64,000 nucleotides of DNA from Candidatus Parcubacteria bacterium (GCA_002869165.1 PKTK01000008.1:9616-73615); one strand, 5' to 3'. Counted from the stretch's first letter, positions 3,018 to 50,966 are shown. Notes: generated by a model from the sequence alone, not told the origin. A program made the numbers and translations.

Positions 3018-3389
3018 TTATTTTTTATTTTTAAGTGTCAAAATGCTACTTGCTATGATATTTGCAATTTCAATTATTTCTTTTAAATTATTATCAATTA
3101 ATATTTTATTATTTTGATTTATTTCTTTTACTAACGCTAACCAGTACTTTGTTTCATTTGCGCTTTTCAAGGCTATTTCAAAATATTTTATATAATCTCT
3201 TTTTGAATGACTTGATTTTGCCTCCACAACATTTGCGCCAATTGAAGTGGACGATCTTATCAATTGATCAATGACGCTATAAAATACTTTTTCATCTCTT
3301 AATTTATCTGCCAATCTTATATTTTATATACTAAAACTAATCAAACGTGCAATAAATTCTTTTTTTAATTTTTCCTTGTCATTTTGCAT
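3018..3389 (-). pseudogene. Four-helix-bundle protein (23S rRNA intervening-sequence protein / Avd-like family) interrupted by an in-frame TAA
   Basis: The track ORF 3018-3314 starts at a TTG. The same frame continues upstream as MQNDKEKLKKEFIARLISFSI-TAA(3324-3326)-NIRLADKL... The joined length of 123 codons and the motifs QLIRSSTSIGANVVEA and ALKSANETKYWL fit the family. Confidence 0.7.
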
Positions 3390-3415
3390 TTTAATTTTTT
3401 ATATTTGATTTCTGA

Positions 3416-5032
3416 CTATATTCCCATCTTCTTAACCCAGCCGAAGCTTGATTCAAAATTCTTTAAAATTATATCAATAATTGATTCTTCTTGAGTTGGG
3501 GTAAGCATGGTGAAATCTTCTGATTTAGCCTGATTTTCTGCTTCATCTTCACATACAATCCAAAACTTATATACGGTTGATGGAATAAAGTTAGTAACTA
3601 CTTGAACGTGCTTAGTGGCCATGTCTTCTTCTTTTGTTAAACTTAAAGGTTCGTCATTTGAAAATAAGCCCTGCTGATAAAAAAACTGGCACAAGGCTGG
3701 CTCATCGGTTGACCAGGAGGCAATAGTTTGGATTTTATTATCCGAACCAGGATAAATCGTTGACTCAGTGCTTACCTTGGAAATCACCGGCGCATATTCA
3801 TCCCTGGTAGTGATAAAAGTGATTGGATCAGACTCGGCCTTTTCTCCATCCTCTGATTCCACTGAAATCATAGCAGAATAATAAGTATCAAAAATAAGGT
3901 TATCTAACTTCATAGAATGAACTGTGATAAAACTGGAATTACCTTCCAATTTCGTATCATTGTTGTTTAAATTGGTATACTCAATAATTGACGAACAGGG
4001 CACATTAGTAGACCACCTAATGGTTGCTGACTCCTCTTCTACTTTAGAAATTTGCAGATTATAAATTTCTGGTTTAACTGACTTAGTTTTAAAAGTCTTG
4101 TCTTCAGAATATCCCTTGAGTCCAATTTCTGACTCAGAAGATACTTGAAAATGGTAAACAGTTGACGGGTCTAGTCCATTTATTTCTACAATGTGCTCAA
4201 GTACATATTCATCCGGTTCACCTTCGTTCCAAACATAAGGATCATCACTATTTGCATCAAAATCATCATCAGAAACAAGTGACACCATAGAATTTGACTC
4301 TTTGTCAGTCATCCAAGTGATAATTGCATAATCTGTACCAACTTCTACATCAGCATAGTCAAGAATAATAGTAGGTGGAGCAACTACTTCTTCTGCTTTT
4401 TGTTGGACTTCTTCTACTATTTCCTCCAACACTTCTTCAACCTGCTCAGCTGAACCTTGTTGCGTTATCTGTTCAATAAACTCCATTACTTGATCAAGTG
4501 ACATAGTTTGTTCAACCACAGCATCTTTATCCCCTGACTCTCCCTCTTCAGCCACGTCTTCACTTAAGCCATCTTTTCCTTCATCGAGAACATCCTGTTT
4601 TTTGCCATCAAAATCTTCCTCTTCAGGAGTACGAAAACTATAGTCATTGGAAATGCCCTGATTACCCTCTTCATCAGATGAGGTCACCCGAAAATAATAA
4701 TCCATACCAGGTAACAGATCCTCAAGTAAAATCATATGCTCAAGTTTATCAAATCTAGGTTCTCTTAAAATGCCATAATTTTTATCAAGACCATAGTTTA
4801 TCAATGAATCAGCTAACTCATCTGTCTCCCAGGTAATATATGTAGAGGTAGCAGACACTTCTCCAATTTTAATATTGTAAAGCTGAGGAGGTGTAACATC
4901 ATCCTCTTCTTCTTGAGCATTCAAAGCGGTAATAGGTTCATAACCAATCACAAAAAGCCCGACAAAAAAGACGGTTAGCAATACAAATGTAAAAATTACC
5001 ATATTAAGGTAAAATTCGAAACCTAGTCGCAT
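3416..5032 (-). CDS. Membrane-anchored protein with four fibronectin-type-III-like repeats
   Basis: N-terminal TM helix (MVIFTFVLLTVFFVGLFVIGY). Four ~90-aa units share W.T(D/N)...H...L..L.P.T.Y.F.V.S.D. An acidic linker separates units 1 and 2. TAG stop. Lies directly downstream of the giant gene on the same strand. Confidence 0.7.
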   Translation of the reverse strand: MRLGFEFYLNMVIFTFVLLTVFFVGLFVIGYEPITALNAQEEEDDVTPPQLYNIKIGEVSATSTYITWETDELADSLINYGLDKNYGILREPRFDKLEHMILLEDLLPGMDYYFRVTSSDEEGNQGISNDYSFRTPEEEDFDGKKQDVLDEGKDGLSEDVAEEGESGDKDAVVEQTMSLDQVMEFIEQITQQGSAEQVEEVLEEIVEEVQQKAEEVVAPPTIILDYADVEVGTDYAIITWMTDKESNSMVSLVSDDDFDANSDDPYVWNEGEPDEYVLEHIVEINGLDPSTVYHFQVSSESEIGLKGYSEDKTFKTKSVKPEIYNLQISKVEEESATIRWSTNVPCSSIIEYTNLNNNDTKLEGNSSFITVHSMKLDNLIFDTYYSAMISVESEDGEKAESDPITFITTRDEYAPVISKVSTESTIYPGSDNKIQTIASWSTDEPALCQFFYQQGLFSNDEPLSLTKEEDMATKHVQVVTNFIPSTVYKFWIVCEDEAENQAKSEDFTMLTPTQEESIIDIILKNFESSFGWVKKMGI

Positions 5033-5099
5033 GAGGATTTACTATTTGAGATTTTATTATTTGTTTATTATTATAACACAAAATACTTTCTTTTGGCTA

Positions 5100-8000
5100 C
5101 TACCAACCATCACCATCTAAAATAACTGTAAAAGTATTATATCCATTGTATGTTGTAGCATCGGCACCAAAAGGTATTTCCATTCCCCAATATATCTCAT
5201 CTGAAGTTGTGGCTATACTAGTTGGTTTAGGGGCAATGATATCCACATTTACCCCACCTATCGTCAAATCCGTACCAGAATTATAGGTAAAGACCGAGGT
5301 GTTCCACTCAATATTATTAACAGTAATGGTATAGCCTGGACTATCCATATCCGTACCTGAAAGATTGGTATCAATTGGTGAATTTCCTGCATTAACTATT
5401 GTTGTGGTTGCATTATAATTCTCTGTATTTTCCCCAGCAAACATCTCACTGCCAAAATCTATTAAGTCTTCAAAAACATCCAAGGCAATATTTGTTTCCA
5501 CATCTACCTGATTAGATGTTGTGGCTGGAAAATTAGTTCCATAACTCAATTGCATATAGCCCTCCCAATATAATGAAGGATTATTTGAAAAAGAATCGGT
5601 CGGATTAATAAAATATCTAACGGTTGTTGTACAGATTACAGAAGCAGTTGAATCAGATGCATCAATACAATCATTTATACTACAATTATCAGTAGTTATT
5701 TGATAACAGGTATTATCATCTGGACTGCAGGAATGAGAACCGACTGCATTGGATATATACACTGAAGATACAGCGCTCGTAATATCTGTACATCCATTAA
5801 AATCCTGGACAGATCCATTGCTAACACTCACCACCTTATCAGACATTCCTCTAATATTGGGCTGAATGTTGGTTCCTCCATTCAAGACCAAGCTACCAAA
5901 TACAGGACTTACATTATTTATACTGTAAGAACTGGACAAGGAATTGTTACTAGCTGCTAAGCCATGATTATCAAATAAATAAGCATAATAAGTATTTGCT
6001 CCTGCAGGTGTCGGGGCTACGTCATCATAATCACATTTAGCATTTGGGGAACTGGTAGCGATTGCTGAACAAACCGTATCATCAACACCACCAGTACAAC
6101 CAGCAAAATTAGCGCTATCCGTATAACAAACATAAAGATAAAGGGTGTTAGTAGCATAAAAAGTATCTGTATCAGAGGATACGGTTGAAATAGTAAATCT
6201 ACTTCCAGGGTCTTGATTGTTAATCAAAGTGGAAACACTAGTAAAACTTGGTCGATGATTTATCACAAATGGAGAATCATTATAAATATTTCCCTCTCCT
6301 TGAGACATTGGCGAACATTGAGAAACACCAAAACCTGGTAACTTATCACAGGCAAAAGCATACCAAGGATTTTCTTCAGTTGCCGCGTTAGCAGTATATG
6401 AACAGCTTGCTTCGGTTGATGGTGTGGTAGAATCAGATATACACCAAGAGCCTCCATTGCAGGTTGGAGCTGTGTTATTACCTGGACTAATACTATTTGT
6501 CTGACAGACTGCCAAATAATAATCATTTCCATCATCATCTTGAGCTGTAGCGGTAAAAGTAATCTGAGAATCCTCATTGGTTGGCGAAGTTGAAGCTGAT
6601 CCACCATCTGAAGGATATACATTGAAATACGGAGCTGAATTATTACTTCCTGTGATAGTTAAAGCCGGATACAAACTATATTCATTTAGCAAAGTTCCTG
6701 AATCAGTTACTCTAAAACAATATGTTTCAGCGGCAATTGCGCTGTTTGTCACATAAAACATATACTCGATTTCCGTATAGAATCCTTCTGATAAGGTAAT
6801 ATCATCACTACTATTTGAAGTCTCCTCTACCATATCACCAGCTGTAAAACTGTAAGTCTCTGAATTATTCAACTGGGCAGTGGTAGGATCCCAATCGGCA
6901 AAATATGAACTTGTTGCCATTTCAAAATGTTCCGTAGTGGCTGTATTGGGCAAAGCAGTCCAAGCACCAAAGTCAGCCACACAAGCATCAGAACTGGTAG
7001 CATACTCTAATCTATAATTATAATTTGTTGCATCTCCACCACCAGTATTGGCAATCTCTATACGCATCCTAGTTGAACTTCCTCTTCCCAGAGCGTTGCC
7101 AGCAGTAGGATTACCAATATCTTCTAACTCTCTCCATGTAGCAGTAGTTTCTGTTCCATCATCTTCTCGCCATCTAAAGTGAATTTGCTCAGTATAAGGA
7201 ATAGGAGCAGAGAAATTAATATCAATATAATCGCTACGCAATGTATAAGAGCCTGTATCTTGATATACTCGCCAATAAATCCAATTACTAGCATCATAGT
7301 ACTCACTTAAATTAGAATTAACTTCTCCATAAAGATCAAAATCCGTGTTAGCTAAAACAGAAAATTCTGTATCAAGAGTCACCCAATCATTAGTTGAACC
7401 AAACCGATAAACTTGCAAAAATATATTTTTGGAAACAGTTGAAGTTGATGACTGTCCATTCCAGGTTGTACTAGCAGCATCAGTATTGTTTACATGTTTA
7501 GTAGCAAACACATATGCTCCATACCCTGAATCAACAATAAGCTCATCTCGATTTGTATCATCATCACTATTTATATCAGCATATCCTTCTGGATCAAAGT
7601 AATAACTTAGATCATCTTCTGAACTTGCTAAGCTTAATGTAGATTCTTTGGAATACCTTATAATATCACTTGAAATAGTGGAAATACTAGGATAAATTGT
7701 ATATTCATCAAAAAATCTATTATCTGTCTCATTATATAATCTCAATCTATAAGTCTTCCCTGTTAATGAATTACTTGTCTCTATAGCAAAGACAAATTCA
7801 GTGTAATAATTTTTTGGTAAAGAATAGGTTGTTGTTTGATAAACACCTTGATAAAAAGCTCCATCCTGCCAAGTATGCGTATTTGCAGATGCTTTAAAGC
7901 CAGTAATTGTATCTCCACTATCTCCTGACAATGCCCCAGAATAGCTTATTTCAGTGGCTGCTCCTACATCAGTCCAAACGCCAGGACTGTCGGTTTGGTT

Positions 8001-11000
8001 TTCAAATTGCAATTTATAAACTTTATCTATAGCGGAGTCTCCGCCAGTATTTTCTAATTGAATTCTAGCATTAATTCTCTCGCCAATATAGACATCACTC
8101 AAAGCTGTATCAGGAGAAGCTTCGGTAGAATTATCATTCACTGTTGCTCCATCATCGTTTTCAAGTAAAAATGATACTTGATCAAGGTAAGCTGGATTGT
8201 GTGTTGTAGTAGCAATTTCAACAGTTGCACTAGCTTTATTGCCTGCCAAATCATAAGCCCAAATATTGAACACATATTGAGTGGAGGAAGAAAGTCCAGA
8301 TACCTGCGTATCAATGGCTGTAGCATAATTTTGAGAACCTAAATTAACATCTATATGCTCGGTATCAAATTCAGTAACTCCTGAAGTACCTTCTTTGTAA
8401 AAAATCTTGTATGTATCAAAATTATCTTCCGTACTCTGCCCTCCAAAAACTAGATACAATGATTCAGAACTTACATTACTAACACTTAGGTTGCCAGGAG
8501 GAGTTGGCGGAGTAGTATCAACCTTAAAATTTGGTCCGCTTATGTTATACTTCACCCAGACAGAACAGGCTGACTCATCATCACAAGCAATCGTTTGCCA
8601 TTTATAACCAATTGAAGAATTTGAAATACCACTAATTGTAGCGGTAGCGGTAAAAGATTCGTAGCTAAAATCACCAGAACTTGAGGCTATAAACCAGATC
8701 TTGGAACTACAAGCAGAAAAATCTTCAGTAATATCACAACTTGAACTTAAACCATCAGTAGTGGTGGCAAAAGTATCAATATTAGCAATTAATTGCACAT
8801 ATAGAGAGACCTCTTCACTATTATCATAATCAATTGTTGAAGCCACTAAATTAACTGTGTCTTCATTCGTCCACTCACCATTACTAATTGTTGTAGACGC
8901 ATCTGTTTTATACTGCTCTAAACTGTAAGGAGGATTTGGAGATGAATTATATTTAGCAAAGGCATAACTAGCGTTCCTGTCATCTGCATCTTGAACTGTA
9001 TTGTTGGAAGCTAGTTCCAACCAAGCTTGATTACCTGAACTATAAAACTGATCATTGCCACCATCCCAAAATACTGCTGAAAAATCAACATCATCGTTTT
9101 GGTAAAGAGTTAACATCTCATCAATGTTAGGATCTTTATAAAACTTGGTCCTGGTCCAATTGTTCGCATCTGAACCTGGTACAGTAGAGGTTGAGGCATC
9201 TAAAGTATCTGTACTAGCTGTAAGTTTTAAATATACTGGTTGAGTATTGTTTGTATCAGCCCAGGTAACTACTACTTTGCTACTTTCATAAAATTCAATG
9301 GAAAATGGTTTTTGAGAATCGTTGGTTTCGCTATACAAAAGTGACTTTGATATATTATCTCCATTTGTTAGTGTTGACCAACTTATAGTCGGATTGGTTA
9401 CATCAACTTTATAAACATTCAACTCCCCACCCGTATCTCTACCCGCAAAATAAGCAATTCCCACTTGCCCAGGATCAGCTGCAAATACACCATGAACAAA
9501 ATTACTACCCCAATCATTTGGCGCTGTGGATGGAGAGCTTACCTGTCCACCATAATTTATTGAACTAGAATCACAAATAAAATATTTTGCATAAGTATAA
9601 CTATTGCTGTTGCTATTAGAAAAACTAATAGCTCCCCTAGTATTATTGCTAGTATCAAAGAAGGCTTGACCAACATAATTATCTAAGTCTTCTTCCTGAG
9701 AAGAGTGTTGAGTCCAGTTTGTCCAATTATCTACATAAGATGAACCACCAATATAATAAGAGCTACCTACATCAGAATCCTCATCAAAAGTAAGCAGTAA
9801 ATAATTGTCAGTACCTGGTCGATGCTCTAATTCACATCCATTCATTACTGCACCTGGGTCTGGGCCAGCTCCCTCGCTTGTCCAAGCATCAATCGGATTC
9901 CAGGAATGCACTCTAGTCCCGCTTGTACCATTATTGTTTTTAATCACTACAAACTCTCCGTCAGACAAATAGGCAATACAAGCAGTTAGCAATTGATTGT
10001 TATCAGTTGATGCATAAGAAGTATCTAGCTGAGTTGAGTCAACAAAATCATTAGCTGCAAAACGATAAACAGTTCCCCACCATTCTTGATTGGTGCCATC
10101 CCAGGTCTTAAAAACAATACCTACTTTTCCACCATCATTACTACGCAAGGCTTTAATATGTCTAATATTATCACCAGCTGCTGTTATATTACCACTTGAT
10201 TGTTCAGTTCCCCAGCTACTTCCTGTCCAAACTCGATAATAGATCGCACTGTCATTTTTGGTATAGAACATAGCTCCAGGTGTTGAAACTGCTGCATTAG
10301 TAGAGGCCGTAGACTGGGTTGAACTAGCCTTATTATCTACAACATCATAAGCCCAAATATTAAAATAATAAGTGGTTACCGGATCAAGCCCATAAACAGT
10401 AATTGTATTAGCGCTATTATAATCCTGATAATAAAGATTATTATCTGTACTTGAGCTTATTTCAATATCAGATTCACTTACTGAAGCCCCGCTTGTATTA
10501 TAAAAAATCTTATATTCCTTAAAATTATCTTCCGTAGAAGCTAAACCATATTGCAAGGTGATTGTATTGGATGTTTGAGAATACTCAAGCAATTGACCAG
10601 GAGGGCTTGGAGCGGTTGTGTCAATTTTAAAGTTAGGCGTAACGATATTAAAAGCATCCCAAGCGGAACAATCAGAATCATCATCACAGGCCATAACCTG
10701 CCACTTGTAGCCTTGTCCGTTGCTAGGATTATCAGGAATTGAAACTATCAAACTTGATTCATAATAAGATGTAACCGCATCAGAGCTGGTAATATTTACA
10801 AAATCATTCGCTGCACTTAGGTTGTTATATCTTGTCTTTACCCAGTTCTCTGTTCTGGCGGTACTAGAAATCTCAAATTGGTCGATCAAACCGTTTAAAT
10901 TTTCACCAATAATTAATGGGTCGTTGTTTGCAGTAATAAGGGTTGAATAATCGGCTGTGCCCACCTTAGTTCCATTGATAAATATCTTCATTTCTTCTGT

Positions 11001-36277: not shown

Positions 36278-36279
36278 TT

Positions 36280-36648: not shown

Positions 36649-36837
36649 CAAACAAATCTACACACTTTTAGTTAATTTAGACATGTTATCAAAAATCCTA
36701 TAATTTATAATATTAAACGAAATAAAAAAGACTCACTTCATTTTTGTAAATATTAACTAATTCGATGACATTTTTTGACATTTCTACTCCCTTTTTGTAA
36801 TACCTACTTTTTTTTAACATTACTACTCACCCTTTTT

Positions 36838-36991: not shown

Positions 36992-37082
36992 TAAAATATA
37001 AATTAAAACAAATAAGTTCCCTCTTTAATAGAAATTAGATCTTTGATGATTCATAATAAAAAGAAATAACCAATTTTTAAAT

Positions 37083-37118
37083 AAAAAAAGACCATTGCAT
37101 ATCTAATGGTCTTTTTTT
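37083..37118. terminator. Bidirectional rho-independent terminator between the convergent pilus arms
   Basis: aaaaaaagaccatt-gcatatct-aatggtcttttttt. Perfect stem flanked by an A-run and a T-run, 14 nt after the MCP stop codon. Confidence 0.7.
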
Positions 37119-37131
37119 ATTATTAAAGCTT

Positions 37132-39261: not shown

Positions 39262-39278
39262 ATATTTATATTATAAAA

Positions 39279-39797
39279 TTATCTGGTTGATGAAATACTG
39301 GGTGGTGTGGTTTGTGAGCCAGCTTCCTCAGAACAGGATCCAACAGTAATAGCGCCACTTGTATGTTTAACTAAATAATAATAAGAGTAGTTTGATCCAG
39401 CTCCAGTTTGTGACGGATCAAATGGAATTTCTTGTAAATATCCATCATCAAGTAATCCTTCTAGGTCAACACAATCAGCTTGCAAAACAACAGTTGGATT
39501 AGAGCAAGTTTTATTACAATCCCCTTCAGTTCCAATCATATAATAATAATCATTTGTTAAATCATTGATAGCATCCATATAAAGTCCTCCATTGTCTACT
39601 TGATCAAGTTTTACCGCTGACAAAACAGCATTCACGTCCGTCCATCTTTGAGCATTTCTAGAATCTTGAAAACGTGCTAATGGATCAAGGGCAACAAAGG
39701 CCAGTGACGCTAAAACAGCAATTACACCGATTACAATCAATAATTCAACTAAAGTAAAACCCCTCTTTTCAGTTTTTAAAAACAAGTTTTTAATCAT
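39279..39797 (-). CDS. Type IV pilin (major pilin candidate, copy 2)
   Basis: KRG|FTLVELLIVIGVIAVLAS, RFQDSRNAQRWTDV. Same four-Cys pattern and ...GSCSEEA C-terminal motif as 35756-36277. Confidence 0.8.
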   Translation of the reverse strand: MIKNLFLKTEKRGFTLVELLIVIGVIAVLASLAFVALDPLARFQDSRNAQRWTDVNAVLSAVKLDQVDNGGLYMDAINDLTNDYYYMIGTEGDCNKTCSNPTVVLQADCVDLEGLLDDGYLQEIPFDPSQTGAGSNYSYYYLVKHTSGAITVGSCSEEAGSQTTPPSISSTR

Positions 39798-39885
39798 ATA
39801 TTTATATTTTTCCTAATATTAAACAAAAATAATCAAAATGCAATAAAACAATCTCTACTGAGTTATACACATAGTATAGCATTTT

Positions 39886-41394: not shown

Positions 41395-41395
41395 A

Positions 41396-43084
41396 TTATC
41401 CCATTGTTACTCTTATTACTTCCTCTAAAGTGGTTATACCATTGGCTGCCTTTTCTATTCCATCTTCAAGCATGGTTTTCATTCCTTCGTCTATAGCCTG
41501 ATCTTTTATTTCTAAATTCGTGGCTTCTTTAGTAATTAATTTTTTTATTTTTGGACTAACTTTCAAGATTTCATATATACCAGTCCTTCCACTATAGCCA
41601 GTACCTGAACATGCTTTACAGCCATCACCCTTGTACCATGTAATATCCTTTATATTTTTATTAAAACGTTTTTCAATCCTATTTTGCAAACCCTCTGTAA
41701 TTGCAATAAAACCTAAATCCACTTCTGTTAATCGATATGTGTAACGACATTTAGTACAAATCGTCCTGAGAAGTCTTTGAGCTATCACCACATTCACAGT
41801 AGAAGCAATTAAAAACGGCTCTATCTTCATCTCTAATAAACGTGGTAGTGCAGTTGCTGAATCAGTTGTATGCAAAGTAGATAAAACTAAATGGCCTGTC
41901 ATGCCAGCATTGACAGCGATTTCAGCAGTCTCCGAATCTCGAATTTCCCCCACCATAATAACATCAGGATCTTGTCTAACAATAGCCCTTAAACCGTTTG
42001 CAAAACTAAGTCCGGATTTATTATCTACTTGAATCTGACTAACTCCTTCAATATTATATTCAACTGGATCTTCAATGCTGGCTACATGCACTTTTTCGGT
42101 GTTTATTTTCTTGAGTAGTTCATACATGGTTGTAGTTTTTCCTGAACCAGTAGGACCAGTAACTAAAATCATGCCATGATGATTTAATATAAGCTTCTTG
42201 ATTTGTTTTAAATCCTCTTCACTAAAACCAATACTACTAAGGCTTAAATGCTTGTTTCTCTTTGTTAACAGTCTAAAAACTATATTTTCGCCACCCTTAA
42301 CGGGTAGTATTGAAACTCTAACATCAACATTTTCTCCACTAGCATTAAAAACAAACTTTCCATCTTGTGCACTGCGATGCTCGTCAATTCTAATTTTTGA
42401 TATAATTTTAATTCTGGTAATCAATTTTTCATACACTTCTTTTTGTAACTCTGCCACCCTACTCATCACACCATCAACTCTAAATCTGACACCAATAAAA
42501 TTTTCATAAGGCTCAATATGTACATCAGAGGCTTTTAGATTGTAAGAATGAATAAGAATAGTATCGAGTATCTTTACCATTAATTCATCTTTTTCTTGGC
42601 CAGGACTAGCTTTTAAATATTCCTCCTCTCTTTTTTTTAAATCCTCATATAAACCTGCCTGGTACTGCCAAAAAGTTCTTTCTAGATCTGTCTCTGTTGC
42701 AAAAAAAATTTTTATTTCTGCATCAAAATATTTTTCTAAAAAATCTATCAATTCTAAGTCACCTGGATCAGCCATAGCAATATTATATACATTGTTCTGA
42801 TGCGAAAAAACGATTATTTTCTTTGCCCTAGCCATACCCTCAGGCAAAAGACCCAATAAATCTTCACCGATCTTTTCGTGCTGCAAATCAATAAAAGGTT
42901 TTTTTATTTTTTGAGCAATTAATTGTCCAAATTCATTATCTGCCAAATAGCCCTTTTCAATAATTGCATCATATATAGTTATATTTTTTTCCGTAGCAAA
43001 AAACTTGGCCTGGTCATATTCTTGCTTTGTCAAATACCCTGGCTCAAGAACCAACTCTATTATTTCTTTTTCGGTTAAATTCAT
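41396..43084 (-). CDS. pilB: Type IV pilus assembly ATPase PilB/GspE family (copy 2)
   Basis: GPTGSGKTT, DPDVIMVGEIRD, TGHLVLSTLHTT, CTKCR...CKACSGTG. Confidence 0.9.
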   Translation of the reverse strand: MNLTEKEIIELVLEPGYLTKQEYDQAKFFATEKNITIYDAIIEKGYLADNEFGQLIAQKIKKPFIDLQHEKIGEDLLGLLPEGMARAKKIIVFSHQNNVYNIAMADPGDLELIDFLEKYFDAEIKIFFATETDLERTFWQYQAGLYEDLKKREEEYLKASPGQEKDELMVKILDTILIHSYNLKASDVHIEPYENFIGVRFRVDGVMSRVAELQKEVYEKLITRIKIISKIRIDEHRSAQDGKFVFNASGENVDVRVSILPVKGGENIVFRLLTKRNKHLSLSSIGFSEEDLKQIKKLILNHHGMILVTGPTGSGKTTTMYELLKKINTEKVHVASIEDPVEYNIEGVSQIQVDNKSGLSFANGLRAIVRQDPDVIMVGEIRDSETAEIAVNAGMTGHLVLSTLHTTDSATALPRLLEMKIEPFLIASTVNVVIAQRLLRTICTKCRYTYRLTEVDLGFIAITEGLQNRIEKRFNKNIKDITWYKGDGCKACSGTGYSGRTGIYEILKVSPKIKKLITKEATNLEIKDQAIDEGMKTMLEDGIEKAANGITTLEEVIRVTMG

Positions 43085-43086
43085 AT

Positions 43087-43464
43087 TTAGTCTAAATGTT
43101 CATTAATTTTCTTAACCACTTCAGCAACAGAAAAATTTGCCTTTATCAAATAATCAACTGCTCCCAATTGCTTCCCTTTTTCTATATCTGTTTCCTGTCC
43201 TAAATTCGATAAAACTATAATTGGAATATCTTTGTATTCTTCATTTAATTTAATTTCTTCTATTGTCTCAAAACCATTTTTATCTGTCATAATTACATCC
43301 ATCAAAATTATGTCTGGCTTGTTTTCTTTAAGAATTTCCATGACATGATTTCCATCAGATGCATGAAAAACCTCAAAACCAGCTCTTTGTAATCCACCTA
43401 AATAAGCTTTAGATATAAATTTATCATCTTCAGCTAAAATTACTTTTATTTTTTTATCAGTCAT
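43087..43464 (-). CDS. Stand-alone receiver-domain response regulator (canonical Asp)
   Basis: VILAEDDKF, DIILMDVIMTDKNGF, IPIIVLSNLGQETDIE, YLIKA. Ends 2 nt before pilB copy 2. Confidence 0.85.
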   Translation of the reverse strand: MTDKKIKVILAEDDKFISKAYLGGLQRAGFEVFHASDGNHVMEILKENKPDIILMDVIMTDKNGFETIEEIKLNEEYKDIPIIVLSNLGQETDIEKGKQLGAVDYLIKANFSVAEVVKKINEHLD

Positions 43465-43490
43465 AATACTTTTTTATATAATTATTTAAA

Positions 43491-45677
43491 TTATGAAATT
43501 GCTAATCCTCTTTCCCCCTCTCTCTTTAACATTCCAGTAAGTGGCATTTTTACATAAAAAACTGTTCCCTTGCCCTCATTCGAATCAAACCAAATCTTTC
43601 CTCCAGAACTATCCACTATCATTTTTGAAGCATACAAACCAAGGCCCGTTCCTTCAGTAACAGCCTGAATAGCATTATCAGCTCGATAAAATTTTTCAAA
43701 TATCCTTTCCTGCATCCCCTTCGGTATTCCTATACCATTATCACTTACACTAATTATATAGTATACATTGTCTTTTTCAACTTTAACCCCCACTTTACCG
43801 TTTTTTTGTTTTGAGTATCTAATTGCATTAGAAATTAAATTTTGAATAACTTGTCTAAATAAATTTTGATCAATCATTACCTTGGGCAATTTCACTTCTT
43901 TATATTCAATTTTCACATTACTAATTCTGGCTGAAGGTTTTGCCTCTGTAATCAGGTTCTTAATATATTCATTAATATCAGTTTCTCTAGGAGTAACCCT
44001 AAGGCGCCCCGACTCAATTCTAGTTACATTTAACAAATCATTAACTAATCTAATCATCCTAGTTGTTGATTTATGAATATTCTCCAAATGCTCCTTTTGT
44101 TCTTCGTTTATTTTTCCAATGTCCTCTTCAATCAAAGCCTCAGAAAAAAGTTTTACTGCAGTCAATGGTGTTCTTAGTTGATGACTCGCAACAGAAACAA
44201 ACTCAGTCTTCATTCGGTCTATTTCTTTTATATAAGTTATATCATGAATAATAATTGCCCCGCCCACAATTCCTCCATCATTATCTTTTACAGGTGAAAT
44301 TGTAATTTCATAAAATTTGTTAACAAATAACACTTCGTTTATATGTGACACCACCCCTCTTTCCAAAGCGCCATCAATCATCTTCTCAAGTTCAATCCCT
44401 GGAAATAATCTTATAAAATCATACAAATTTGCTGAAGAATAAAGTAAACCCGTATAAAAAGTAGCTTTTGAGTTAGTTAAAACAACATTTTTCTCAACTG
44501 TAAACATGATAACTCCGTCACTCAAACTTTTTACCAAAGACTCAGTTTTGGAATGCTGAGACTTATCCAATGCATGCAAATGTGCAATAGTTACAGACAA
44601 AGTTGCACCAATTGCCCGAGATAAATTGTCTTCAATATCAGAATACTCAACATGTTCACAATAAGACAAATGTATAATTCCAAAAAAATTTTCTCCTGTA
44701 GACAAAGGAATCAATAATGACTTTTTGGGTATTGCATCAATAGAATTATCAAGTTTCTCACCTCCCAAGCTTGGACATATCTTTTCTAAAATTTTATTAT
44801 TTACATTATTAAAAGTTTTTTTATTTTTTTTAATATACTCAATAATTTCGTCTTTAATAGAATCTATATAATTTTCACTTACATTTTCATTCAAATAAGA
44901 TTTAAAATATAAATCCCCTTCTTCAAACGGATTAGATACAAGCAATGTAATAACACTTGACTTAGAAGCTTGTTTTAAATGCTCATAAACAAAATTAACA
45001 GCCTCTCTAACATCAATTACATTTGTTAATTTATCTCCTAATGATTTTAAAATTTCTAATTGAAAATGTCTATTCTCTAAATCAATTTTTGAAGCTTCAA
45101 GTTCTTCTTGTGAATCTTGCACGTCTTCCAAAATATTCAATATCGCCGCTCTTTGCTTCTCAAGTTCTTTTTTGTCAATATGCATTTTATCCACTAATTT
45201 TTTGAGTTCAAGTGTTTTATTTTCTACAAGATTCTCCATTTCTTTTGACTGAATTTCAAGCTTTTGCTTATAGCTAAACAAAAAATCAAGTGTTTTGTTG
45301 AAAGCATTTGCCAATGAGCCAATCTCGTCATCACTATCAATTTCAATTTTTCTATCAAATTCTCCATTAGCAACTCGCAAAGAAGCTTCCTTTAATTTTT
45401 TAATAGGATTAATCAACCCTTTTGCAACAAAATATGATACTAGCAAAGAAACCAAAGAAAAAACAATTGTTGCCAGTGTGCCAGTCTTTATAAAACTATT
45501 TATTATATTGCTTGCCAAGTTCTCATCAATATTATATTCAATTAAAACATCTGTTAAAAAAACCTGAAAATAGTAGTTTATACTAATTCCCATGAATAAA
45601 ATAAATAAGAAAAAACTAATAAGTATCTTGTTTAAAATACTAGAACTTTCTTCTGCTTTATCTACTTCTTTCTTCAT
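43491..45677 (-). CDS. Sensor histidine kinase (TM-HAMP-coiled coil-GAF/PAS-like-HisKA-HATPase_c)
   Basis: HAMP NPIKKLKEASLRVANGEFDRKIEIDSDDEIGSLANAFN, H box FVSVASHQLRTPLT, G2 box TGLGLYASKMIV. Its ATG overlaps a TGA of the upstream reading frame (ATGA). Confidence 0.85.
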   Translation of the reverse strand: MKKEVDKAEESSSILNKILISFFLFILFMGISINYYFQVFLTDVLIEYNIDENLASNIINSFIKTGTLATIVFSLVSLLVSYFVAKGLINPIKKLKEASLRVANGEFDRKIEIDSDDEIGSLANAFNKTLDFLFSYKQKLEIQSKEMENLVENKTLELKKLVDKMHIDKKELEKQRAAILNILEDVQDSQEELEASKIDLENRHFQLEILKSLGDKLTNVIDVREAVNFVYEHLKQASKSSVITLLVSNPFEEGDLYFKSYLNENVSENYIDSIKDEIIEYIKKNKKTFNNVNNKILEKICPSLGGEKLDNSIDAIPKKSLLIPLSTGENFFGIIHLSYCEHVEYSDIEDNLSRAIGATLSVTIAHLHALDKSQHSKTESLVKSLSDGVIMFTVEKNVVLTNSKATFYTGLLYSSANLYDFIRLFPGIELEKMIDGALERGVVSHINEVLFVNKFYEITISPVKDNDGGIVGGAIIIHDITYIKEIDRMKTEFVSVASHQLRTPLTAVKLFSEALIEEDIGKINEEQKEHLENIHKSTTRMIRLVNDLLNVTRIESGRLRVTPRETDINEYIKNLITEAKPSARISNVKIEYKEVKLPKVMIDQNLFRQVIQNLISNAIRYSKQKNGKVGVKVEKDNVYYIISVSDNGIGIPKGMQERIFEKFYRADNAIQAVTEGTGLGLYASKMIVDSSGGKIWFDSNEGKGTVFYVKMPLTGMLKREGERGLAIS

Positions 45678-46699
45678 GTTAAAAATAATTTAAAACCTAT
45701 AAAAAATGCCCCAACAGCGCATAAAAAACTAAGATATGCCACAACGATTGCCTTAATCCCAGAATTACTAAAAAGCTTTTTGGTGTTCGCATTTAAACCA
45801 ATTGTTGCCAAGGCAATCTACCATAAAATATTATAAGTAGGCTTTATCAAATAGCTAATGTTGTCAATGTAAAATTGATTTTGATAATAAACAGACATAG
45901 TTCCCAATATCCCAGCCCCTAAAAAGGCCCCCAAATACCAAGGTAAAAATACTTTTCCCTTAATCAAGCTAGCAAAAAGCGGTATAGCAATCAAAAGGCC
46001 CAAATACCTAAAAGCTTTAATAGATAAAGCGAATTTCATAATTTCATCTGCGGGCAAAACACTTTCCAGAGGGGGCATTATATTTATTGAAGCTTTTACA
46101 AAGCCTGTGAATTGCATAACCGTGCCTGATAACAGCGCATACGCTTCATTACTAAAATTTGCTGACACGGCCAAAAGAGGCAATAAAATAAAAAGTCCAA
46201 ACACAGCAGCCAAAAAAACTGATATTAATGAAATAGAAATATCATCCGAATCAGCCTCAACCGCTGGAGCTGTAACTGTGATCGCCGATGCTCCACAAAT
46301 AGCGCCACCAGTTGCTGTCAAATAAGTAATTTCTTTTTTTAATCCTAAGATTCTTCCTAAAAAAATTGAACTAAAATAATAAGTTAACATTACAGCGATT
46401 AATAACACCACATAATATGGATTAATTTCTCTTACAGTTAAAAAATTTAAATTCCTAAGTCCATAAAACATAATACCAATAGAAATAAACAAAAAAGGTA
46501 GCTTTTCAATGCCTTGTTTTAAAAACCTCTTATTTGGAATAATAATATTTAATACTAATCCTATCACCAAAGATATTATTAAAGGATCTGCTATGCCAAC
46601 CACAACAAAAAAACTAAGAAAATAAGAACAAATACCAATCAATATAACAAGCAAAACAGCTAAATAATTATTTCTAATAATTTTTAAGTAATTAATCAT
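45674..46699 (-). pseudogene. YeiH/UPF0324-like polytopic membrane protein interrupted by an in-frame TAG
   Basis: Track ORF 45818-46699 (...TATGGAICGASAITVTAPAV...) ends at TAG 45818-45820. The same frame continues for 47 sense codons (IALATIGLNANTKKLFSNSGIKAIVVAYLSFLCAVGAFFIGFKLFLT) to a TGA that overlaps the kinase ATG. Joined length is 341 codons. Confidence 0.6.
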
Positions 46700-47046
46700 A
46701 TATCTGAATTTATTTTTTTAATTTTTCTTTTAAATCTATTATCTTCTGCCCTCGATTAAATGTTAATTTTTAAAATTTTTCAAGTTCTTCAATTTTTTCT
46801 TGAGACAAAATAACTTTATATTCAGCCTTTTCCATGGATTCACGTAACAATTCTGCTGAAAAACCAATCACTCCTCCCTCATTGGCCTATATTTAAAAAT
46901 TAGGAAAATTAATTTTTGCCACATATTTAAATACTTTTTTTCTGTTTGTCTTTCTATTTTATCGGCCAATAAAGAAATAGAAGTAAGCATGAAAACAAGA
47001 ACCAATAAGATGCTTAAAAAACTTTAAATTCCTCCTTTTTTATTTA

Positions 47047-48705
47047 TCATTTTTTTTCTGCTATTTTTTCTTTCAAGTCTTTATTCTCTCTTTTTAGTTC
47101 AATCATCTTTAATTCCCTTCCAACTGATAATTTATTAATTTTTTCTAATTCATTATTTCTTTCTATAATTTCTTTTTCTGCTTCTTTATTTTCAGTAATA
47201 TCTCTAGCAATATGAATATATTTAACGACATTCCCATTGTCAAACACCGGGGAAATAACAATTGATAACCATTTACCCAAGCCTTCTTCATAATATTCCA
47301 TTTGCTCTCTCTTCCTTGTTTCCTTAGAAACTGCCAGCGGACAATACTTTACAGGCTTATCTTCTTTATGAAAAACTGAAAAACATTTTTTACCAATCAT
47401 TTCCTCTTTTTTCATACGCAACAATTCACACGCTGCTTTGTTTACATTAAGAATAACAAAGTTTTTATCATGAATTGTTATACTATCAGACATTGAATCA
47501 AAAGTTTCAGACCATTCACTTACAAGCTCTTTCATCTCTTTTTCTTTGTTTTTTAATTCAGTTATATCAATACCAGAACTCAAACTTCCAATAACTTTTC
47601 CCTCTTTGTCATATAGTAAAGTATTGCGCCAGCTCACAAATCTTTTTTCTCCCTTTTTATTAATAATACCATTCTCAAAGACACTATAATCATTTTGCTG
47701 TTTCGTTAATCCTTGATGAACTTCTTTAATCAATGCCCTTTCTTCAGCTGGAATAAAATTTTCTAACCACTTTTTTCCAATGATATTATCTCTCTTATCA
47801 CCTAATATCTCACACCCCTGTTCATTGATTAAAGTCACAATACCCTTCTTATCCAAAGTCATGATAATCGACCCAGCAATATTTAAATACATTTCAGATT
47901 TCTCTTTTTCTATTTTTAATTTTTCAAAATCTTCTTTAGTTTTAGAAATATCTCGACTTACTACAAAAATCCTCTCTCCTACTACATCTGCCGTAGAGTC
48001 AATATAAGCATAGGAACCATCATTTCTTTTAAAACGATAGTCTATTTTTATTGAGGGTAAGATATCATTGCTAGTTTTATTTTTTTTCTCTACATCTTTT
48101 AAGGTAACAGATAACAAAGAAAATATTTTTGCCTGATCTTCAGGATGAATAAATTCCAAGATATTTTTACCTTTCAAATCTTCTGGGGTGTAGCCTAGAG
48201 TTCTATTATGAGCTTGATTTACATAAAGAAAATTTGGTTTTTGTTTTGCTTCAATAATTGCTATCAAATCATCTGTTCTATCAAGAAGTTGTTTATACTC
48301 ACCATCTTTTTCTTTAATCACTTTCTGTGATTTTTTAATATCTGAAATATCATCTATAATAACTGCAAAATAATTTTTTTCTGGTGAAAAAACATATATT
48401 CTATACCACCCTCCAAGGGCTTTGACATAATCTTCAAATCTATCCTCTCCTCCAAACAGAGCAATTTTACCAAACCTTCCTATCCAATCTGCCTCTTCTT
48501 TCTCAATACCAGGAATCACCTCTCTAACTGTTTTATTAATAATTTCTGTTTTTTTTAATCCGGTTAATTTTTCGTAAGCAGGATTTACATCAACAAACGA
48601 ATAATCAATTGGTTTATTATTTTCATCAACAATAACCTTGTGAAGTGCAAAACCATTAAACATTTTTGAAAATAATTCTTTGTATTTAAATTCTAATTTA
48701 TCCAT
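47047..48705 (-). CDS. Multi-PAS sensor protein with C-terminal coiled coil and no recognisable output domain
   Basis: At least three PAS-like units (e.g. NPAYEKLTGLKKTEIINKTVREV, VNQAHNRTLGYTPEDLKGKNILEFIHPED, VNKAACELLRMKKEEMIGKKCFSVFH). Ends VGRELKMIELKRENKDLKEKIAEKK. TGA stop. Confidence 0.75.
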   Translation of the reverse strand: MDKLEFKYKELFSKMFNGFALHKVIVDENNKPIDYSFVDVNPAYEKLTGLKKTEIINKTVREVIPGIEKEEADWIGRFGKIALFGGEDRFEDYVKALGGWYRIYVFSPEKNYFAVIIDDISDIKKSQKVIKEKDGEYKQLLDRTDDLIAIIEAKQKPNFLYVNQAHNRTLGYTPEDLKGKNILEFIHPEDQAKIFSLLSVTLKDVEKKNKTSNDILPSIKIDYRFKRNDGSYAYIDSTADVVGERIFVVSRDISKTKEDFEKLKIEKEKSEMYLNIAGSIIMTLDKKGIVTLINEQGCEILGDKRDNIIGKKWLENFIPAEERALIKEVHQGLTKQQNDYSVFENGIINKKGEKRFVSWRNTLLYDKEGKVIGSLSSGIDITELKNKEKEMKELVSEWSETFDSMSDSITIHDKNFVILNVNKAACELLRMKKEEMIGKKCFSVFHKEDKPVKYCPLAVSKETRKREQMEYYEEGLGKWLSIVISPVFDNGNVVKYIHIARDITENKEAEKEIIERNNELEKINKLSVGRELKMIELKRENKDLKEKIAEKK

Positions 48706-48720
48706 TCTTTTCTTTTATAA

Positions 48721-48749
48721 CAAAAAAAAACAAAACCACACAGGTTTTG
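48721..48749 (-). terminator. Rho-independent terminator-like hairpin downstream of the kinase HATPase ORF
   Basis: Minus strand reads caaaacc-tgtgt-ggttttg followed by T9. 100 nt after the stop at 48849 and only 16 nt upstream of the PAS gene ATG. Confidence 0.45.
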
Positions 48750-48848
48750 TTTATTCTGTTTTTTTCTTAAAAATTGCATGAGGATACAATTGTATTATTA
48801 TATTTTATAACAATAATTATACAATATTTTGAATTTTTTTTCAAATAT

Positions 48849-49274
48849 TTAAAAAGTTATTTTAAATTCTGTTCCTTTACCTTTTTTACTATGTACCTCT
48901 ATTGACCCATTGTGTGCCTCAACAATCTTTTTCACAATAACCAATCCCAAGCCAGTGCCCTGAACATTAACGCTCTTATCTTTTTCACCTCTAAAAAATC
49001 TTTCAAACAAATGTTTCTGATCATCTTCGGAAATTCCCAAACCAGTATCACTAACCAAAACTTCAACTTTATTTTTATTTTTACTTAAAATTAAACTTAT
49101 TATATTATCTTGGTTTGGTTTTTTATATTTAACACTATTACTAACTAAATTGGTTATTAATTCTTCTATTTCGCTAGAATTTCCAAATAAAAATATATTG
49201 TCTTCTATTTTACTTTTAATTTTTATGTTTTCTCCAGCTGTAATGATTTCATAGTTCTCAACCAATTCTGTCAT
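48849..49274 (-). CDS. HATPase_c domain ORF (3' part of a stop-split histidine kinase)
   Basis: N box ELITNLVSNSVKY, G1 box SDTGLGI, G2 box GTGLGLVIVKKIV. In frame with 49296-50966. Confidence 0.8.
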   Translation of the reverse strand: MTELVENYEIITAGENIKIKSKIEDNIFLFGNSSEIEELITNLVSNSVKYKKPNQDNIISLILSKNKNKVEVLVSDTGLGISEDDQKHLFERFFRGEKDKSVNVQGTGLGLVIVKKIVEAHNGSIEVHSKKGKGTEFKITF

Positions 49275-49295
49275 TAACTCACTAAAGTTAAATTT

Positions 49296-50966
49296 TTAAA
49301 AATCCTTCACCTCATTATTGTTTGCTTCCAATTTAGCCAATCTCAACATTTCATAAATAAGCTTTGAAACTCTATCAATTGACTTTTCGATTGAAACCAC
49401 CTTTTCTTTTGCTTCCTTATTCTCAGAAAGATCAGATAATTCTGTTTTTAAAATAGTCAATGGAGTCTGTAACCCATGGGCAATTTCATGCATCATCAAT
49501 CTTTGCTCTTCCTGCAAATTTTTTATTCTAGCCGTTCTTTCCTCTACCTTTTGTTCCAAATCTTCTGAATAATCCCTAACTTCTCTAAACAAACGGGCCT
49601 TCTCTATAGCAACTCCAGCCTGAAAAGAAAATGTTCTTAACAATTTATAATCTTCGCTATTATAAGAATCGCCAGATTTTTTAGCTCCCAAAAGAATAAA
49701 GGCTATTAGTTTATTTTCTAAATAAATAGGTACATACAAGTAAGCGCTTTTATCTTGAAAAAAATTCTCAAAGATTTTTTTGTTTTTCTTATATCTTTTT
49801 TTATCTTCCATTTTTAGTTCCTCAAGTCTCTCCAGTGCTTCCGTCTTGTTCATAATTGGAATGTACTCATCTTTTATACTTCCCAAAAGTTCTTCTGAGA
49901 GACTTATGGTTTCAAAATAAGTTTGGTGATTTATTTTTATATCTCGATTATCTATATATATAAATTTTACTTTATCAATCTTAAATATTATTTTTAGCTT
50001 TTGCATTATCTCATTGAACATATATTTAATATCAATATTTCGATTCAATGTTTGACTAAGAGAAAACAAGGTGTCTGAATAATTATATTTATCTTTAAAA
50101 AAAATTCTATCAGTTAACTTTCTGAAATATTTTTCAATAACTGGCACACCATATATGCCAGCTATAATTGTAATAAGCCCTGAAACAAATGATGATACTT
50201 TCTCAAAGGGCAAAACAGATTCAACTGATACCAAAACAATAATATAAAAAGCTGATATAATGCCAAACAACACAGAAAAAATAACACCTCTCTGAAAAAC
50301 CATAGCTACATCAAACATACGATGACGCAAACTAGCGTATGCAATAATTATCGGGAAAAGACCAACTAATATATTCAAATATGGATAAATAAAAATATCG
50401 TATACTGGCATAAAAGCAAACAGGCCACCAATATAGCCAGTATAAGTTGCCCACAAAAAAGAACGAAGCTGTTTTTTATAATAACCGTCACTCTCTTTCA
50501 TGATTTGTATCATTTTATAAATTGCATAAAGAACTGTAGAAAAGAAAATAATAACAAATAAATTATAAAAAATAGTTGGATTTGAAATATAATAAAATCC
50601 AGAAAAAACAAGTTCCAAATCTTTAATAAAATAATCTGTTAAATTAAGTATTTGAAAAAAAATAGTAACACTATACAAAAAAATCAACAATCTTTTTTTC
50701 TTGATATTCAAAAATTCAAAAATAAAATGGGTATACAATACCGTAATAAAAATTACTCCAAAATACCCCAGACGCCACCAAAAGATAGCCTTGGCATAGT
50801 CTGTTTCCATGCCAATTTTATATACTCCAATTCCCCATATCGCTACAGTCAAACAAAAAACTACCCAAATATTGTGCATTCTTCTCTTCCCTTTTACAAA
50901 TAAAAATAAGCTAAGAAGGGAATTGCTTACTACAATAATTAAACCTGTTAACGAAAAAATATTCAT
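49296..50966 (-). CDS. 7TM-GAF-like-HisKA ORF (5' part of a stop-split histidine kinase)
   Basis: About seven N-terminal TM helices (HisKA_7TM-like), then H box MHEIAHGLQTPLT. Ends ...EVKDF-TAA (49296-49298). Confidence 0.8.
   Translation of the reverse strand: MNIFSLTGLIIVVSNSLLSLFLFVKGKRRMHNIWVVFCLTVAIWGIGVYKIGMETDYAKAIFWWRLGYFGVIFITVLYTHFIFEFLNIKKKRLLIFLYSVTIFFQILNLTDYFIKDLELVFSGFYYISNPTIFYNLFVIIFFSTVLYAIYKMIQIMKESDGYYKKQLRSFLWATYTGYIGGLFAFMPVYDIFIYPYLNILVGLFPIIIAYASLRHRMFDVAMVFQRGVIFSVLFGIISAFYIIVLVSVESVLPFEKVSSFVSGLITIIAGIYGVPVIEKYFRKLTDRIFFKDKYNYSDTLFSLSQTLNRNIDIKYMFNEIMQKLKIIFKIDKVKFIYIDNRDIKINHQTYFETISLSEELLGSIKDEYIPIMNKTEALERLEELKMEDKKRYKKNKKIFENFFQDKSAYLYVPIYLENKLIAFILLGAKKSGDSYNSEDYKLLRTFSFQAGVAIEKARLFREVRDYSEDLEQKVEERTARIKNLQEEQRLMMHEIAHGLQTPLTILKTELSDLSENKEAKEKVVSIEKSIDRVSKLIYEMLRLAKLEANNNEVKDF

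What the first reader, a model, noticed from the sequence alone, without database searches (positions are those of the whole stretch)
3324..49298. Pattern: five genes each carry one in-frame stop and none shows a frameshift
Seen in sequence: the four-helix-bundle gene (TAA 3324), cheA (TAA 25591), a minor pilin (TAA 31830), the YeiH-like gene (TAG 45818) and a histidine kinase (TAA 49296) are each interrupted by exactly one stop codon. In every case the frame, the downstream motifs and even the operon junctions are preserved. That is about 5 of 45 genes. I found no frameshifted gene except possibly the remnants at 46700-47046.

The expected residues differ by context (helix-interior hydrophobic, linker, charged). 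This argues against a simple codon reassignment, and TAA/TAG clearly terminate most genes here.

Possible explanations (inference):
- Recent nonsense mutations under AT-biased mutation pressure and relaxed selection.
- Tolerated low-level read-through, for example via a suppressor tRNA.
- Population-consensus or assembly artefacts.
Basis: partly seen in the sequence, partly recalled or inferred. Interest (0 to 1): 0.6.

Follow-up and report, generated by a model that had tools for sequence, protein, structure and literature searches.

The report
Oxidation-type C-to-A changes create stops
The stop codons are really in this sequence, but four of the five are C-to-A changes found only in this one assembly of the organism, so they look like DNA-damage or assembly errors, or a very recent mutation burst, and not like a special way of reading the genetic code.

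Summary
All five in-frame stops are present at the stated coordinates, and there is no frameshift. The window is part of an NCBI genome assembled from a metagenome (a MAG), named Candidatus Parcubacteria bacterium (locus tags C0583_).

Other public assemblies of the same population were compared: ENA ERZ794999, Logan SRR5894289, JGI 3300007102 and ENA ERZ794998. Wherever they cover the sites, they carry serine codons at four of the five stops, with one exception. These are TCA at the cheA, pilin and histidine-kinase sites and TCG at the YeiH-like site. The exception is the cheA stop, which the JGI contig shares.

These four stops belong to 41 single-base differences over 60.5 kb between the window and the ENA contig. 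All 41 are G:C>T:A transversions with the A or T in the window. There are no transitions and no small indels.

The effects of the 41 changes match random expectation (observed/expected):
- nonsense 4/5.0
- missense 32/30.3
- synonymous 3/3.7

So selection has not filtered them. One change destroys a conserved receiver-domain aspartate.

TAA ends 33 of 43 ORFs, so there is no recoding. No tRNA was found in about 80 kb.

The signature is that of oxidised guanine. I think library or assembly damage is most likely (about 0.6). A real mutator sub-lineage is the main rival (about 0.3).

The fifth stop, in the four-helix-bundle gene, is present in every assembly and is an ordinary fixed nonsense mutation.

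The parts
25591..25593 (+). TAA inside cheA (gene 25171-26958). The ancestral codon is TCA (Ser141), changed by C>A at 25592.
   Evidence: Translation. ENA ERZ794999 has an intact 595-aa CheA with Hpt, H-kinase_dim, HATPase_c and CheW domains. Base comparison. The JGI 3300007102 contig shares the A allele.
31830..31832 (+). TAA inside the pilin-like gene (31758-32723, N_methyl motif at the N-terminus). The ancestral codon is TCA (Ser25), changed by C>A at 31831. A second private change at 31816 turns ACT into AAT.
   Evidence: The gene is intact at 321 aa in both the ENA and JGI contigs. N_methyl match.
45818..45820 (-). TAG inside the YeiH-like Cons_hypoth698 gene (45674-46699). The ancestral codon is TCG (Ser294), changed by G>T at 45819 on the + strand.
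   Evidence: The gene is intact at 341 aa in ENA ERZ794999 and in the sister sample ERZ794998. Classification.
49296..49298 (-). TAA inside the histidine kinase gene (48849-50966; HisKA_7TM, GAF, HisKA, HATPase_c). The ancestral codon is TCA (Ser557), changed by G>T at 49297 on the + strand.
   Evidence: The gene is intact at 705 aa in the ENA and Logan contigs. Base comparison. Classification.
3324..3326 (-). TAA inside the four-helix-bundle (23S_rRNA_IVP / TIGR02436) gene (3018-3389). It is present in every assembly, so it is a fixed nonsense mutation of the population and a separate case from the other four.
   Evidence: The sequence is identical in the ENA999 and ENA998 contigs, there is no difference at this site in Logan, and the JGI contig shows no difference from ENA there. 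The TIGR02436 profile match runs across the stop: residues 15-120 against profile 4-109 at 79 bits, versus 75 bits for the 98-aa ORF.
1677..62781 (.). The set of 41 window-private single-base differences from the ENA contig. All are G:C>T:A (22 C>A and 19 G>T on the + strand). The four stops above are members of this set.
   Evidence: list and counts; coding effects; sequence context; strand blocks. Region 15033-18507 was not compared.
23779..23779 (+). An example of an unselected hit. GAC>TAC (D10Y) destroys the second Asp of the receiver-domain 'DD' acidic pocket in response regulator 23752-24102.
   Evidence...KILIADDSAF... in ENA against ...KILIADYSAF... in the window. The role of the DD pocket is from established knowledge of CheY-type receivers.

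Best explanation
Four of the five stops (cheA, pilin-like, YeiH-like, histidine kinase) are TCR(Ser)>TAR changes caused by C>A transversions. They are found only in this particular assembly, the NCBI Parcubacteria MAG with locus tags C0583_. The one exception is the cheA stop, which the JGI contig also carries.

They are 4 of 41 G:C>T:A-only differences from other assemblies of the same population. This is the signature of oxidised guanine (8-oxoG pairing with A). The changes fall on the sequence as random hits would.

The most likely mechanism (inferred): guanine oxidation outside the cell, during extraction, shearing or amplification, produced minority C>A/G>T reads. This MAG's assembly, and to a lesser degree the JGI assembly, carried them into the consensus. 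On this reading the genes are intact in the organism and nothing reads through the stops. No frameshifts appear because this process makes only substitutions.

The fifth stop (four-helix-bundle gene) is a real, population-wide nonsense mutation in a small accessory gene. That is an ordinary event.
For: Shown by tool results:

- Provenance. The window's variant proteins exist only as NCBI PLX270xx entries from an 89,055-bp MAG contig. For 10 of 10 tested, they never occur in Logan, ENA or JGI.
- Other assemblies. The ENA ERZ794999 contig (330 kb, coverage about 24) and the Logan SRR5894289 contig are identical to each other over 33.7 kb. They carry sense codons at the four sites. The low-coverage sister sample ERZ794998 has the ancestral base at all 10 variant sites it covers.
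- Spectrum. All 41 of 41 differences are G:C>T:A with the A/T in the window. There are no transitions and no small indels. JGI against ENA gives 6 of 6 G:C>T:A, 2 of them shared with the window.
- Control. JGI and ENA assemblies of another CPR (Candidate Phyla Radiation) population from another study differ by 2 transitions.
- No selection. Observed/expected counts are nonsense 4/4.96, missense 32/30.25, synonymous 3/3.67 and intergenic 2/2.1. The D10Y change hits a conserved receiver residue.
- Strand pattern. The variants form strand-coherent blocks that switch near 36-37 kb (p about 0.003). There is no matching switch in 4-fold-site GC skew. This fits a template-strand or assembly-path cause better than replication asymmetry.

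Literature: acoustic shearing produces exactly C>A/G>T artefacts (PMC3616734).
Against: - No reads were available, so allele fractions and read-orientation bias are untested.
- The published shearing artefacts sit at low allelic fraction (<20%) and favour CCG>CAG (PMC3616734). Here T[C>A]N is enriched (22 against 13.8 expected; TCA 11 against 5.3), and the errors reached a consensus at what is probably good coverage. That requires poor bubble resolution by the assembler or a low-complexity or amplified library, neither of which I could verify.
- Two variants (25592, 27224) are shared with the JGI contig. This is also what common descent of a real lineage would give.
- I could not establish that the MAG, the JGI assembly and the ENA/Logan assemblies come from the same reads.
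- I could not test whether other organisms' MAGs from the same study show the same signature.
Confidence: 0.6

Rival explanations
1. The changes are real in vivo mutations. A sub-lineage of this Parcubacteria population has lost 8-oxoG repair (a MutY/MutM-type defect) or was exposed to strong oxidants. It accumulated about 7 G:C>T:A changes per 10 kb, including four gene-killing nonsense mutations in dispensable sensing, motility and transport genes. The MAG captured that lineage, and the JGI contig captured a less-mutated relative.
For: - The spectrum is pure G:C>T:A, as in MutY-deficient E. coli lines (PMC10995721).
- The variants are nested like a tree: 2 shared between the window and JGI, 4 private to JGI, 39 private to the window.
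- The genes that are hit (chemotaxis, pilin, sensor kinase, YeiH-like) are plausibly dispensable.
- The context (TCA/TCC) differs from the CCG context of the shearing artefact (PMC3616734).
- The genome is AT-rich at about 33% GC, as long-term GC>AT pressure would produce.
Against: - There is no depletion at all of nonsense or radical missense changes (D10Y). Extrapolated genome-wide, about 10% of genes in a small genome would be truncated, which is hard to reconcile with viability.
- The variant alleles are absent from every Logan, ENA and JGI protein entry. So in no publicly assembled run are they the majority allele.
- The strand bias switches at about 37 kb with no origin- or terminus-like skew change.
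- There are zero 'normal' mutations (transitions) alongside the 41 transversions.
Confidence: 0.3
2. The stops are decoded. A suppressor tRNA, a stop-codon reassignment or programmed read-through lets TAA/TAG be read (for example as Ser), so the genes are functional as written.
For: The frames, downstream domains and operon junctions are preserved. All four private stops replace the same amino acid, Ser.
Against: - TAA terminates 33 and TAG 8 of 43 ORFs.
- The same population carries TCA/TCG at these sites in other assemblies.
- The stops are just 4 of 41 same-type changes, and the rest are ordinary missense, synonymous or intergenic hits at random proportions.
- No tRNA gene was found in the window or in about 20 kb of extra flanks.
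- Preserved frames are expected for any very recent substitution.
Confidence: 0.03
3. This is ordinary pseudogenisation in a reduced, AT-rich symbiont genome under general AT-biased mutation and relaxed selection.
For: The four-helix-bundle stop is fixed in all assemblies and fits this picture. The genome is AT-rich.
Against: For the other four stops, generic AT bias would be dominated by C>T/G>A transitions and accompanied by indels. None is seen among the 41 differences. The lesions are also not shared by the rest of the population.
Confidence: 0.05

Closest known systems
8-oxoguanine C>A/G>T sequencing-library artefact (oxidation during acoustic shearing; Costello et al. 2013, PMC3616734)
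   Same: Only C>A/G>T changes occur. They have no biological filtering and are absent from other data on the same material.
   Different: The published artefact sits at low allelic fraction and peaks at CCG>CAG. Here the changes are in an assembled consensus, T[C>A]N (TCA, TCC) is enriched, and the changes form strand-coherent blocks about 25 kb long.
MutY/MutM (GO-system) deficient bacterial mutators (spectrum summarised in PMC10995721)
   Same: The spectrum is almost purely G:C>T:A. Nonsense and missense changes accumulate without indels.
   Different: The repair genotype of this organism is unknown. There is no sign of any selection. The alleles were not found as the majority in any other public assembly.
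Stop-codon reassignment in CPR bacteria and phages (for example UGA=Gly in Gracilibacteria/Absconditabacteria, and TAG recoding in some phages). This comparison is from my own knowledge and was not looked up here.
   Same: There are in-frame stop codons in otherwise intact genes of a CPR-type genome.
   Different: Here the affected codons are the organism's normal terminators. They are not conserved even within the population. They arise from one mutational class that also produced 37 non-stop changes.

Membership tests
Alternative genetic code / stop-codon reassignment | The reassigned codon is not used, or is only rarely used, as a terminator. | tested here: not met
   TAA ends 33, TAG 8 and TGA 2 of 43 ORFs.
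Alternative genetic code / stop-codon reassignment | The in-frame stop positions are conserved in close relatives or other genomes of the lineage. | tested here: not met
   ENA, Logan and ENA-sister assemblies, and JGI for the pilin, have TCA/TCG at four of the five sites.
Alternative genetic code / stop-codon reassignment | A cognate suppressor tRNA (anticodon UUA/CUA) or an altered release factor is present. | not testable with these tools
   No tRNA was found in the window or in five flanking loci. The whole genome was not available.
8-oxoG library-damage artefact | The changes are exclusively C>A/G>T. | tested here: met
   41 of 41 for window against ENA. 6 of 6 for JGI against ENA.
8-oxoG library-damage artefact | The changes are not reproduced in independent data from the same material. 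| tested here: met
   They are absent from the ENA ERZ794999, Logan SRR5894289 and ENA ERZ794998 contigs. The variant proteins occur only in NCBI. Caveat: it is not proven that these assemblies come from the same material.
8-oxoG library-damage artefact | Low allelic fraction and read-orientation bias (G>T in read 1, C>A in read 2). | not testable with these tools
   No read data were accessible.
8-oxoG library-damage artefact | Preference for the CCG>CAG context. | tested here: inconclusive
   CCG is 2 observed against 0.89 expected. The main enrichment is TCA (11 against 5.3) and TCC (6 against 2.6). CCG is rare in this 33% GC genome.
MutY/MutM-deficient mutator lineage | The spectrum is dominated by G:C>T:A. 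| tested here: met
   Compare PMC10995721.
MutY/MutM-deficient mutator lineage | Loss or inactivation of mutY/mutM (fpg) in the genome. | not testable with these tools
   Only about 85 kb of the genome was readable, and no repair genes lie in it.
MutY/MutM-deficient mutator lineage | The variants are the fixed or majority allele in a real sample. | tested here: inconclusive
   Two variants recur in the JGI contig. But none of 10 variant proteins is present in any Logan, ENA or JGI entry.
Ordinary pseudogenes of a reduced genome | The lesions are shared by the population and are of mixed type (indels, transitions, nonsense). | tested here: not met
   This holds only for the four-helix-bundle stop. 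The other four are private to the MAG (the cheA stop is also in the JGI contig) and of a single type.

The most novel reading that the evidence does not exclude
The most novel reading not excluded: the MAG captures a genuine, natural hypermutator sub-lineage of a Parcubacteria (CPR) bacterium. Its mutations are purely G:C>T:A, from 8-oxoG repair failure or an oxidative burst, and it was caught while randomly destroying about 10% of its genes. The strand-coherent blocks, which switch at about 37 kb, would then record which parental DNA strand carried the lesions. That would be a lesion-segregation-like pattern, or a strong replication asymmetry. If so, it would be an in situ view of unfiltered mutation in an uncultivated symbiont.
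Probability: 0.27. Interest if true: 0.5.

Novelty: not a real feature. Interest (0 to 1): 0.15.

Why it matters
This matters mainly as a data-quality warning. A deposited MAG can carry oxidation-type C>A substitutions at about 7 per 10 kb. In an AT-rich genome about 12% of such hits make stop codons. They split genes without frameshifts and mimic recoding, read-through or pseudogenisation. In this window they turn cheA, a pilin, a transporter-like protein and a sensor kinase into apparent fragments.

Anyone inferring gene loss, genetic-code changes or dN/dS from such MAGs would be misled. Comparing alternative public assemblies of the same population is a quick way to detect the problem.

If the changes are instead real, the window documents a natural GO-repair-type mutator in the Candidate Phyla Radiation. 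That would be of moderate interest.

Tried and rejected
- Codon reassignment was rejected from stop-codon usage.
- Suppressor tRNA: ARAGORN found no tRNA in the window or in five flanking loci.
- Exact-pattern DNA scans of genome contigs (twice) and metagenome contigs for the pilin site found nothing. So the MAG is not a GTDB representative in that collection, and JGI sample 3300007102 is not in the scanned JGI collection.
- The NCBI contig itself is not in the gene-position index, so the 25 kb of the MAG contig outside the window could not be examined.
- Paper searches for SRR5894289, 3300007102 and C0583 found nothing useful. A guess from memory that the MAG comes from a perchlorate-enrichment study could not be verified and is not used.
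- I tried to test the same signature in another organism from the same libraries. The PilB homologue search gave no same-study hits. The one triple-sourced hit I looked up (P0030) came from a different study, so it served only as a control (2 transitions).
- Replication origin or terminus as the cause of the strand switch at about 37 kb: the 4-fold-site GC skew shows the same sign on both sides, so this is not supported.
- Transcription-strand asymmetry: the direction is opposite in the giant gene compared with the other genes, so this is not supported.
- A double-frameshift reading of the pilin N-terminus was considered and dropped. The ENA and JGI sequences show a simple substitution.
Full report
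**Observation.**
The five in-frame stops are in the sequence as described.
- cheA reads ...GIGK*KRNEDGG... at 25591-25593.
- The histidine kinase reads ...EVKDF*KFNFSEL... at 49298-49296 on the minus strand.
- The four-helix-bundle gene reads MQNDKEKLKKEFIARLISFSI*NIRL... with TAA at 3326-3324.
- The pilin-like gene reads MKKENGNSLIEVIIALAIFNWFAS*LTSL... with TAA at 31830-31832.
- The YeiH-like gene reads ...NILW*IALATIGL... with TAG at 45820-45818. It then runs on to a TGA that overlaps the next ATG.

The window is 30-37% GC.

**Not a code change.**
TAA terminates 33, TAG 8 and TGA 2 of 43 long ORFs. ARAGORN finds no tRNA in the window or in five flanking loci.

**Provenance and sister assemblies.**
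Exact-sequence look-ups show the same locus in several other public assemblies:
- an ENA assembly, ERZ794999 NODE_10 (330 kb, coverage 23.9);
- a Logan assembly of SRR5894289 (68 kb);
- a JGI contig, 3300007102 Ga0102541_1309770 (88 kb);
- two low-coverage contigs of the neighbouring ENA assembly ERZ794998.

The window itself is an NCBI MAG, 'Candidatus Parcubacteria bacterium', locus tags C0583_, proteins PLX27046-PLX27083, on a contig of 89,055 bp. Ten of ten proteins that carry window-specific residues exist only as those NCBI entries. The unmutated versions are the ones held by JGI, Logan and ENA.

In the ENA contig the genes are whole:
- CheA is 595 aa.
- The pilin-like gene is 321 aa.
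- The YeiH-like gene is 341 aa.
- The kinase is 705 aa.

**The differences.**
Over 60,525 compared bases (everything except 15033-18507), the window differs from the ENA contig at 41 single bases. All 41 are G:C>T:A transversions with the A or T in the window (22 C>A and 19 G>T on the + strand). There is no transition and no small indel. The only length difference is one 45-bp unit of a tandem repeat at 60129-60295.

ENA and Logan are identical over 33.7 kb. The ERZ794998 contigs carry the ancestral C/G at all ten variant sites they cover, including TCG at the YeiH site. So the window alleles are the derived ones.

The JGI contig differs from ENA at six sites in 41 kb, again all G:C>T:A. Two of these (25592, which is the cheA stop, and 27224) are shared with the window. 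The other four are private to JGI.

As a control, JGI and ENA assemblies of another CPR population from another study differ by two transitions in 10 kb.

**The stops are a by-product.**
Four of the five stops belong to this set and all replace serine codons: TCA>TAA at cheA, the pilin and the kinase, and TCG>TAG at the YeiH-like gene.

I mutated every G or C of the ancestral sequence in the same way to get the expectation. This gives 12.1% nonsense, 73.8% missense, 8.9% synonymous and 5.1% intergenic. For 41 hits the expected counts are 4.96, 30.25, 3.67 and 2.1. The observed counts are 4, 32, 3 and 2.

So there is no trace of purifying selection. One hit turns the receiver-domain 'DD' pocket of a CheY-like regulator into 'DY'. 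Frameshifts are absent simply because the process makes substitutions only.

**Context and strand.**
T[C>A]N contexts are enriched: 22 against 13.8 expected, with TCA at 11 against 5.3 (p = 0.02).

The variants are strand-coherent. On the + strand the ratio of C>A to G>T is 20:7 left of a switch between 35301 and 37276, and 2:12 right of it. This is against the local base composition (simulated p = 0.0026).

GC skew at 4-fold sites, separated into coding-strand and positional components, has the same sign on both sides of 37 kb. So a replication origin or terminus does not explain the switch. Transcription strand does not explain it either, because the giant gene behaves oppositely to the other genes.

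**The fifth stop.**
The TAA in the four-helix-bundle gene is identical in ENA999, Logan, JGI and ENA998. The TIGR02436 profile aligns across it: profile positions 4-109 at 79 bits, against 18-109 at 75 bits for the 98-aa downstream ORF. It is a nonsense mutation, or N-terminal truncation, fixed in the population. It is unrelated to the assembly-specific set.

**Interpretation.**
A pure G:C>T:A spectrum is the hallmark of 8-oxoguanine mispairing with A. Two sources are known.
- Oxidation of DNA during library preparation gives C>A/G>T artefacts (PMC3616734).
- Failure of MutY/MutM repair in vivo gives the same change (PMC10995721).

I favour the technical source, at about 0.6, for these reasons:
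- The hits are completely unfiltered by selection.
- They would truncate roughly a tenth of the genes of a small genome.
- They are not the majority allele in any other public assembly.
- The population is otherwise clonal, with no ordinary SNPs.
- The strand blocks fit a template-strand or assembly-path effect better than replication.

A rough consistency check supports this (it is inference). Suppose the assembler kept one orientation of each bubble. Then about 80 bubbles per 60 kb at 24x coverage imply a per-G error rate of about 0.4%. The sharing of 2 of 6 JGI variants with the window implies a candidate pool of similar size.

Several points count against the technical source:
- The published artefact is of low allelic fraction and CCG-biased.
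- Two variants are shared with the JGI contig in a tree-like way.
- I could not see reads, and I could not show that the assemblies share reads.

A real mutator sub-lineage therefore remains a serious rival, at about 0.3. Programmed read-through or recoding is essentially excluded.

**Verdict.**
But it is explained by a known substitution signature that is private to this assembly, plus one ordinary fixed nonsense mutation. Interest is low. The main value is as a caution for MAG-based inference of pseudogenes and code changes.

Noticed in passing
window 1677-62781, switch between 35301 and 37276: The 41 private G:C>T:A variants are strand-coherent. On the + strand, C>A to G>T is 20:7 on the left and 2:12 on the right (p about 0.003). 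There is no matching switch in 4-fold-site GC skew. The cause is unexplained. It could reflect a single template strand (amplification) or the direction of the assembler's path.
   Followed up: partly
window 60129-60295: A 45-bp tandem repeat with 3.7 copies lies next to a DUF559 gene (59755-60102). The ENA contig has one more copy, and the Logan contig ends just upstream at 59661. Related 121-bp segments about 93% identical lie at 59629-59748 and 60432-60552.
   Followed up: partly
window 5100-22814 (minus strand): A giant 5,904-aa ORF with DUF2341, Laminin_G_3 and fn3 domains. It stays open despite 13 of the private substitutions, 10 of which are coding-strand G>T. Its nonsense expectation is 12% per G hit.
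   Followed up: partly
window 23094-36648 (+) and 37132-45677 (-): A complete chemotaxis operon (CheW, response regulator, CheB, CheA, CheC, CheD, response regulator) is fused directly to a type IV pilus-like cluster (PilB-like ATPase, PilC-like protein, pilins, PilM-SH3). A second PilB/PilM/pilin/MCP cluster converges on it. This sits in a Parcubacteria-type genome, and the nearest PilB homologues outside this population are only 58% identical.
   Followed up: no
It is not part of the assembly-specific changes.
   Followed up: partly
L008 (window 39418-48100) and L009 (window 1833-8318): The low-coverage (about 3x) sister-sample contigs have 17 private differences from the ENA999 contig. Eight of these are G:C>T:A, and the rest are mixed and partly clustered (for example five within 47277-47339). 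This suggests elevated G:C>T:A noise or microdiversity at read level in this study.
   Followed up: partly
L004 and L006 (flanks outside the window): Cohesin- and dockerin-domain proteins and a MazE-like antitoxin flank the window in the 330-kb ENA contig.
   Followed up: no
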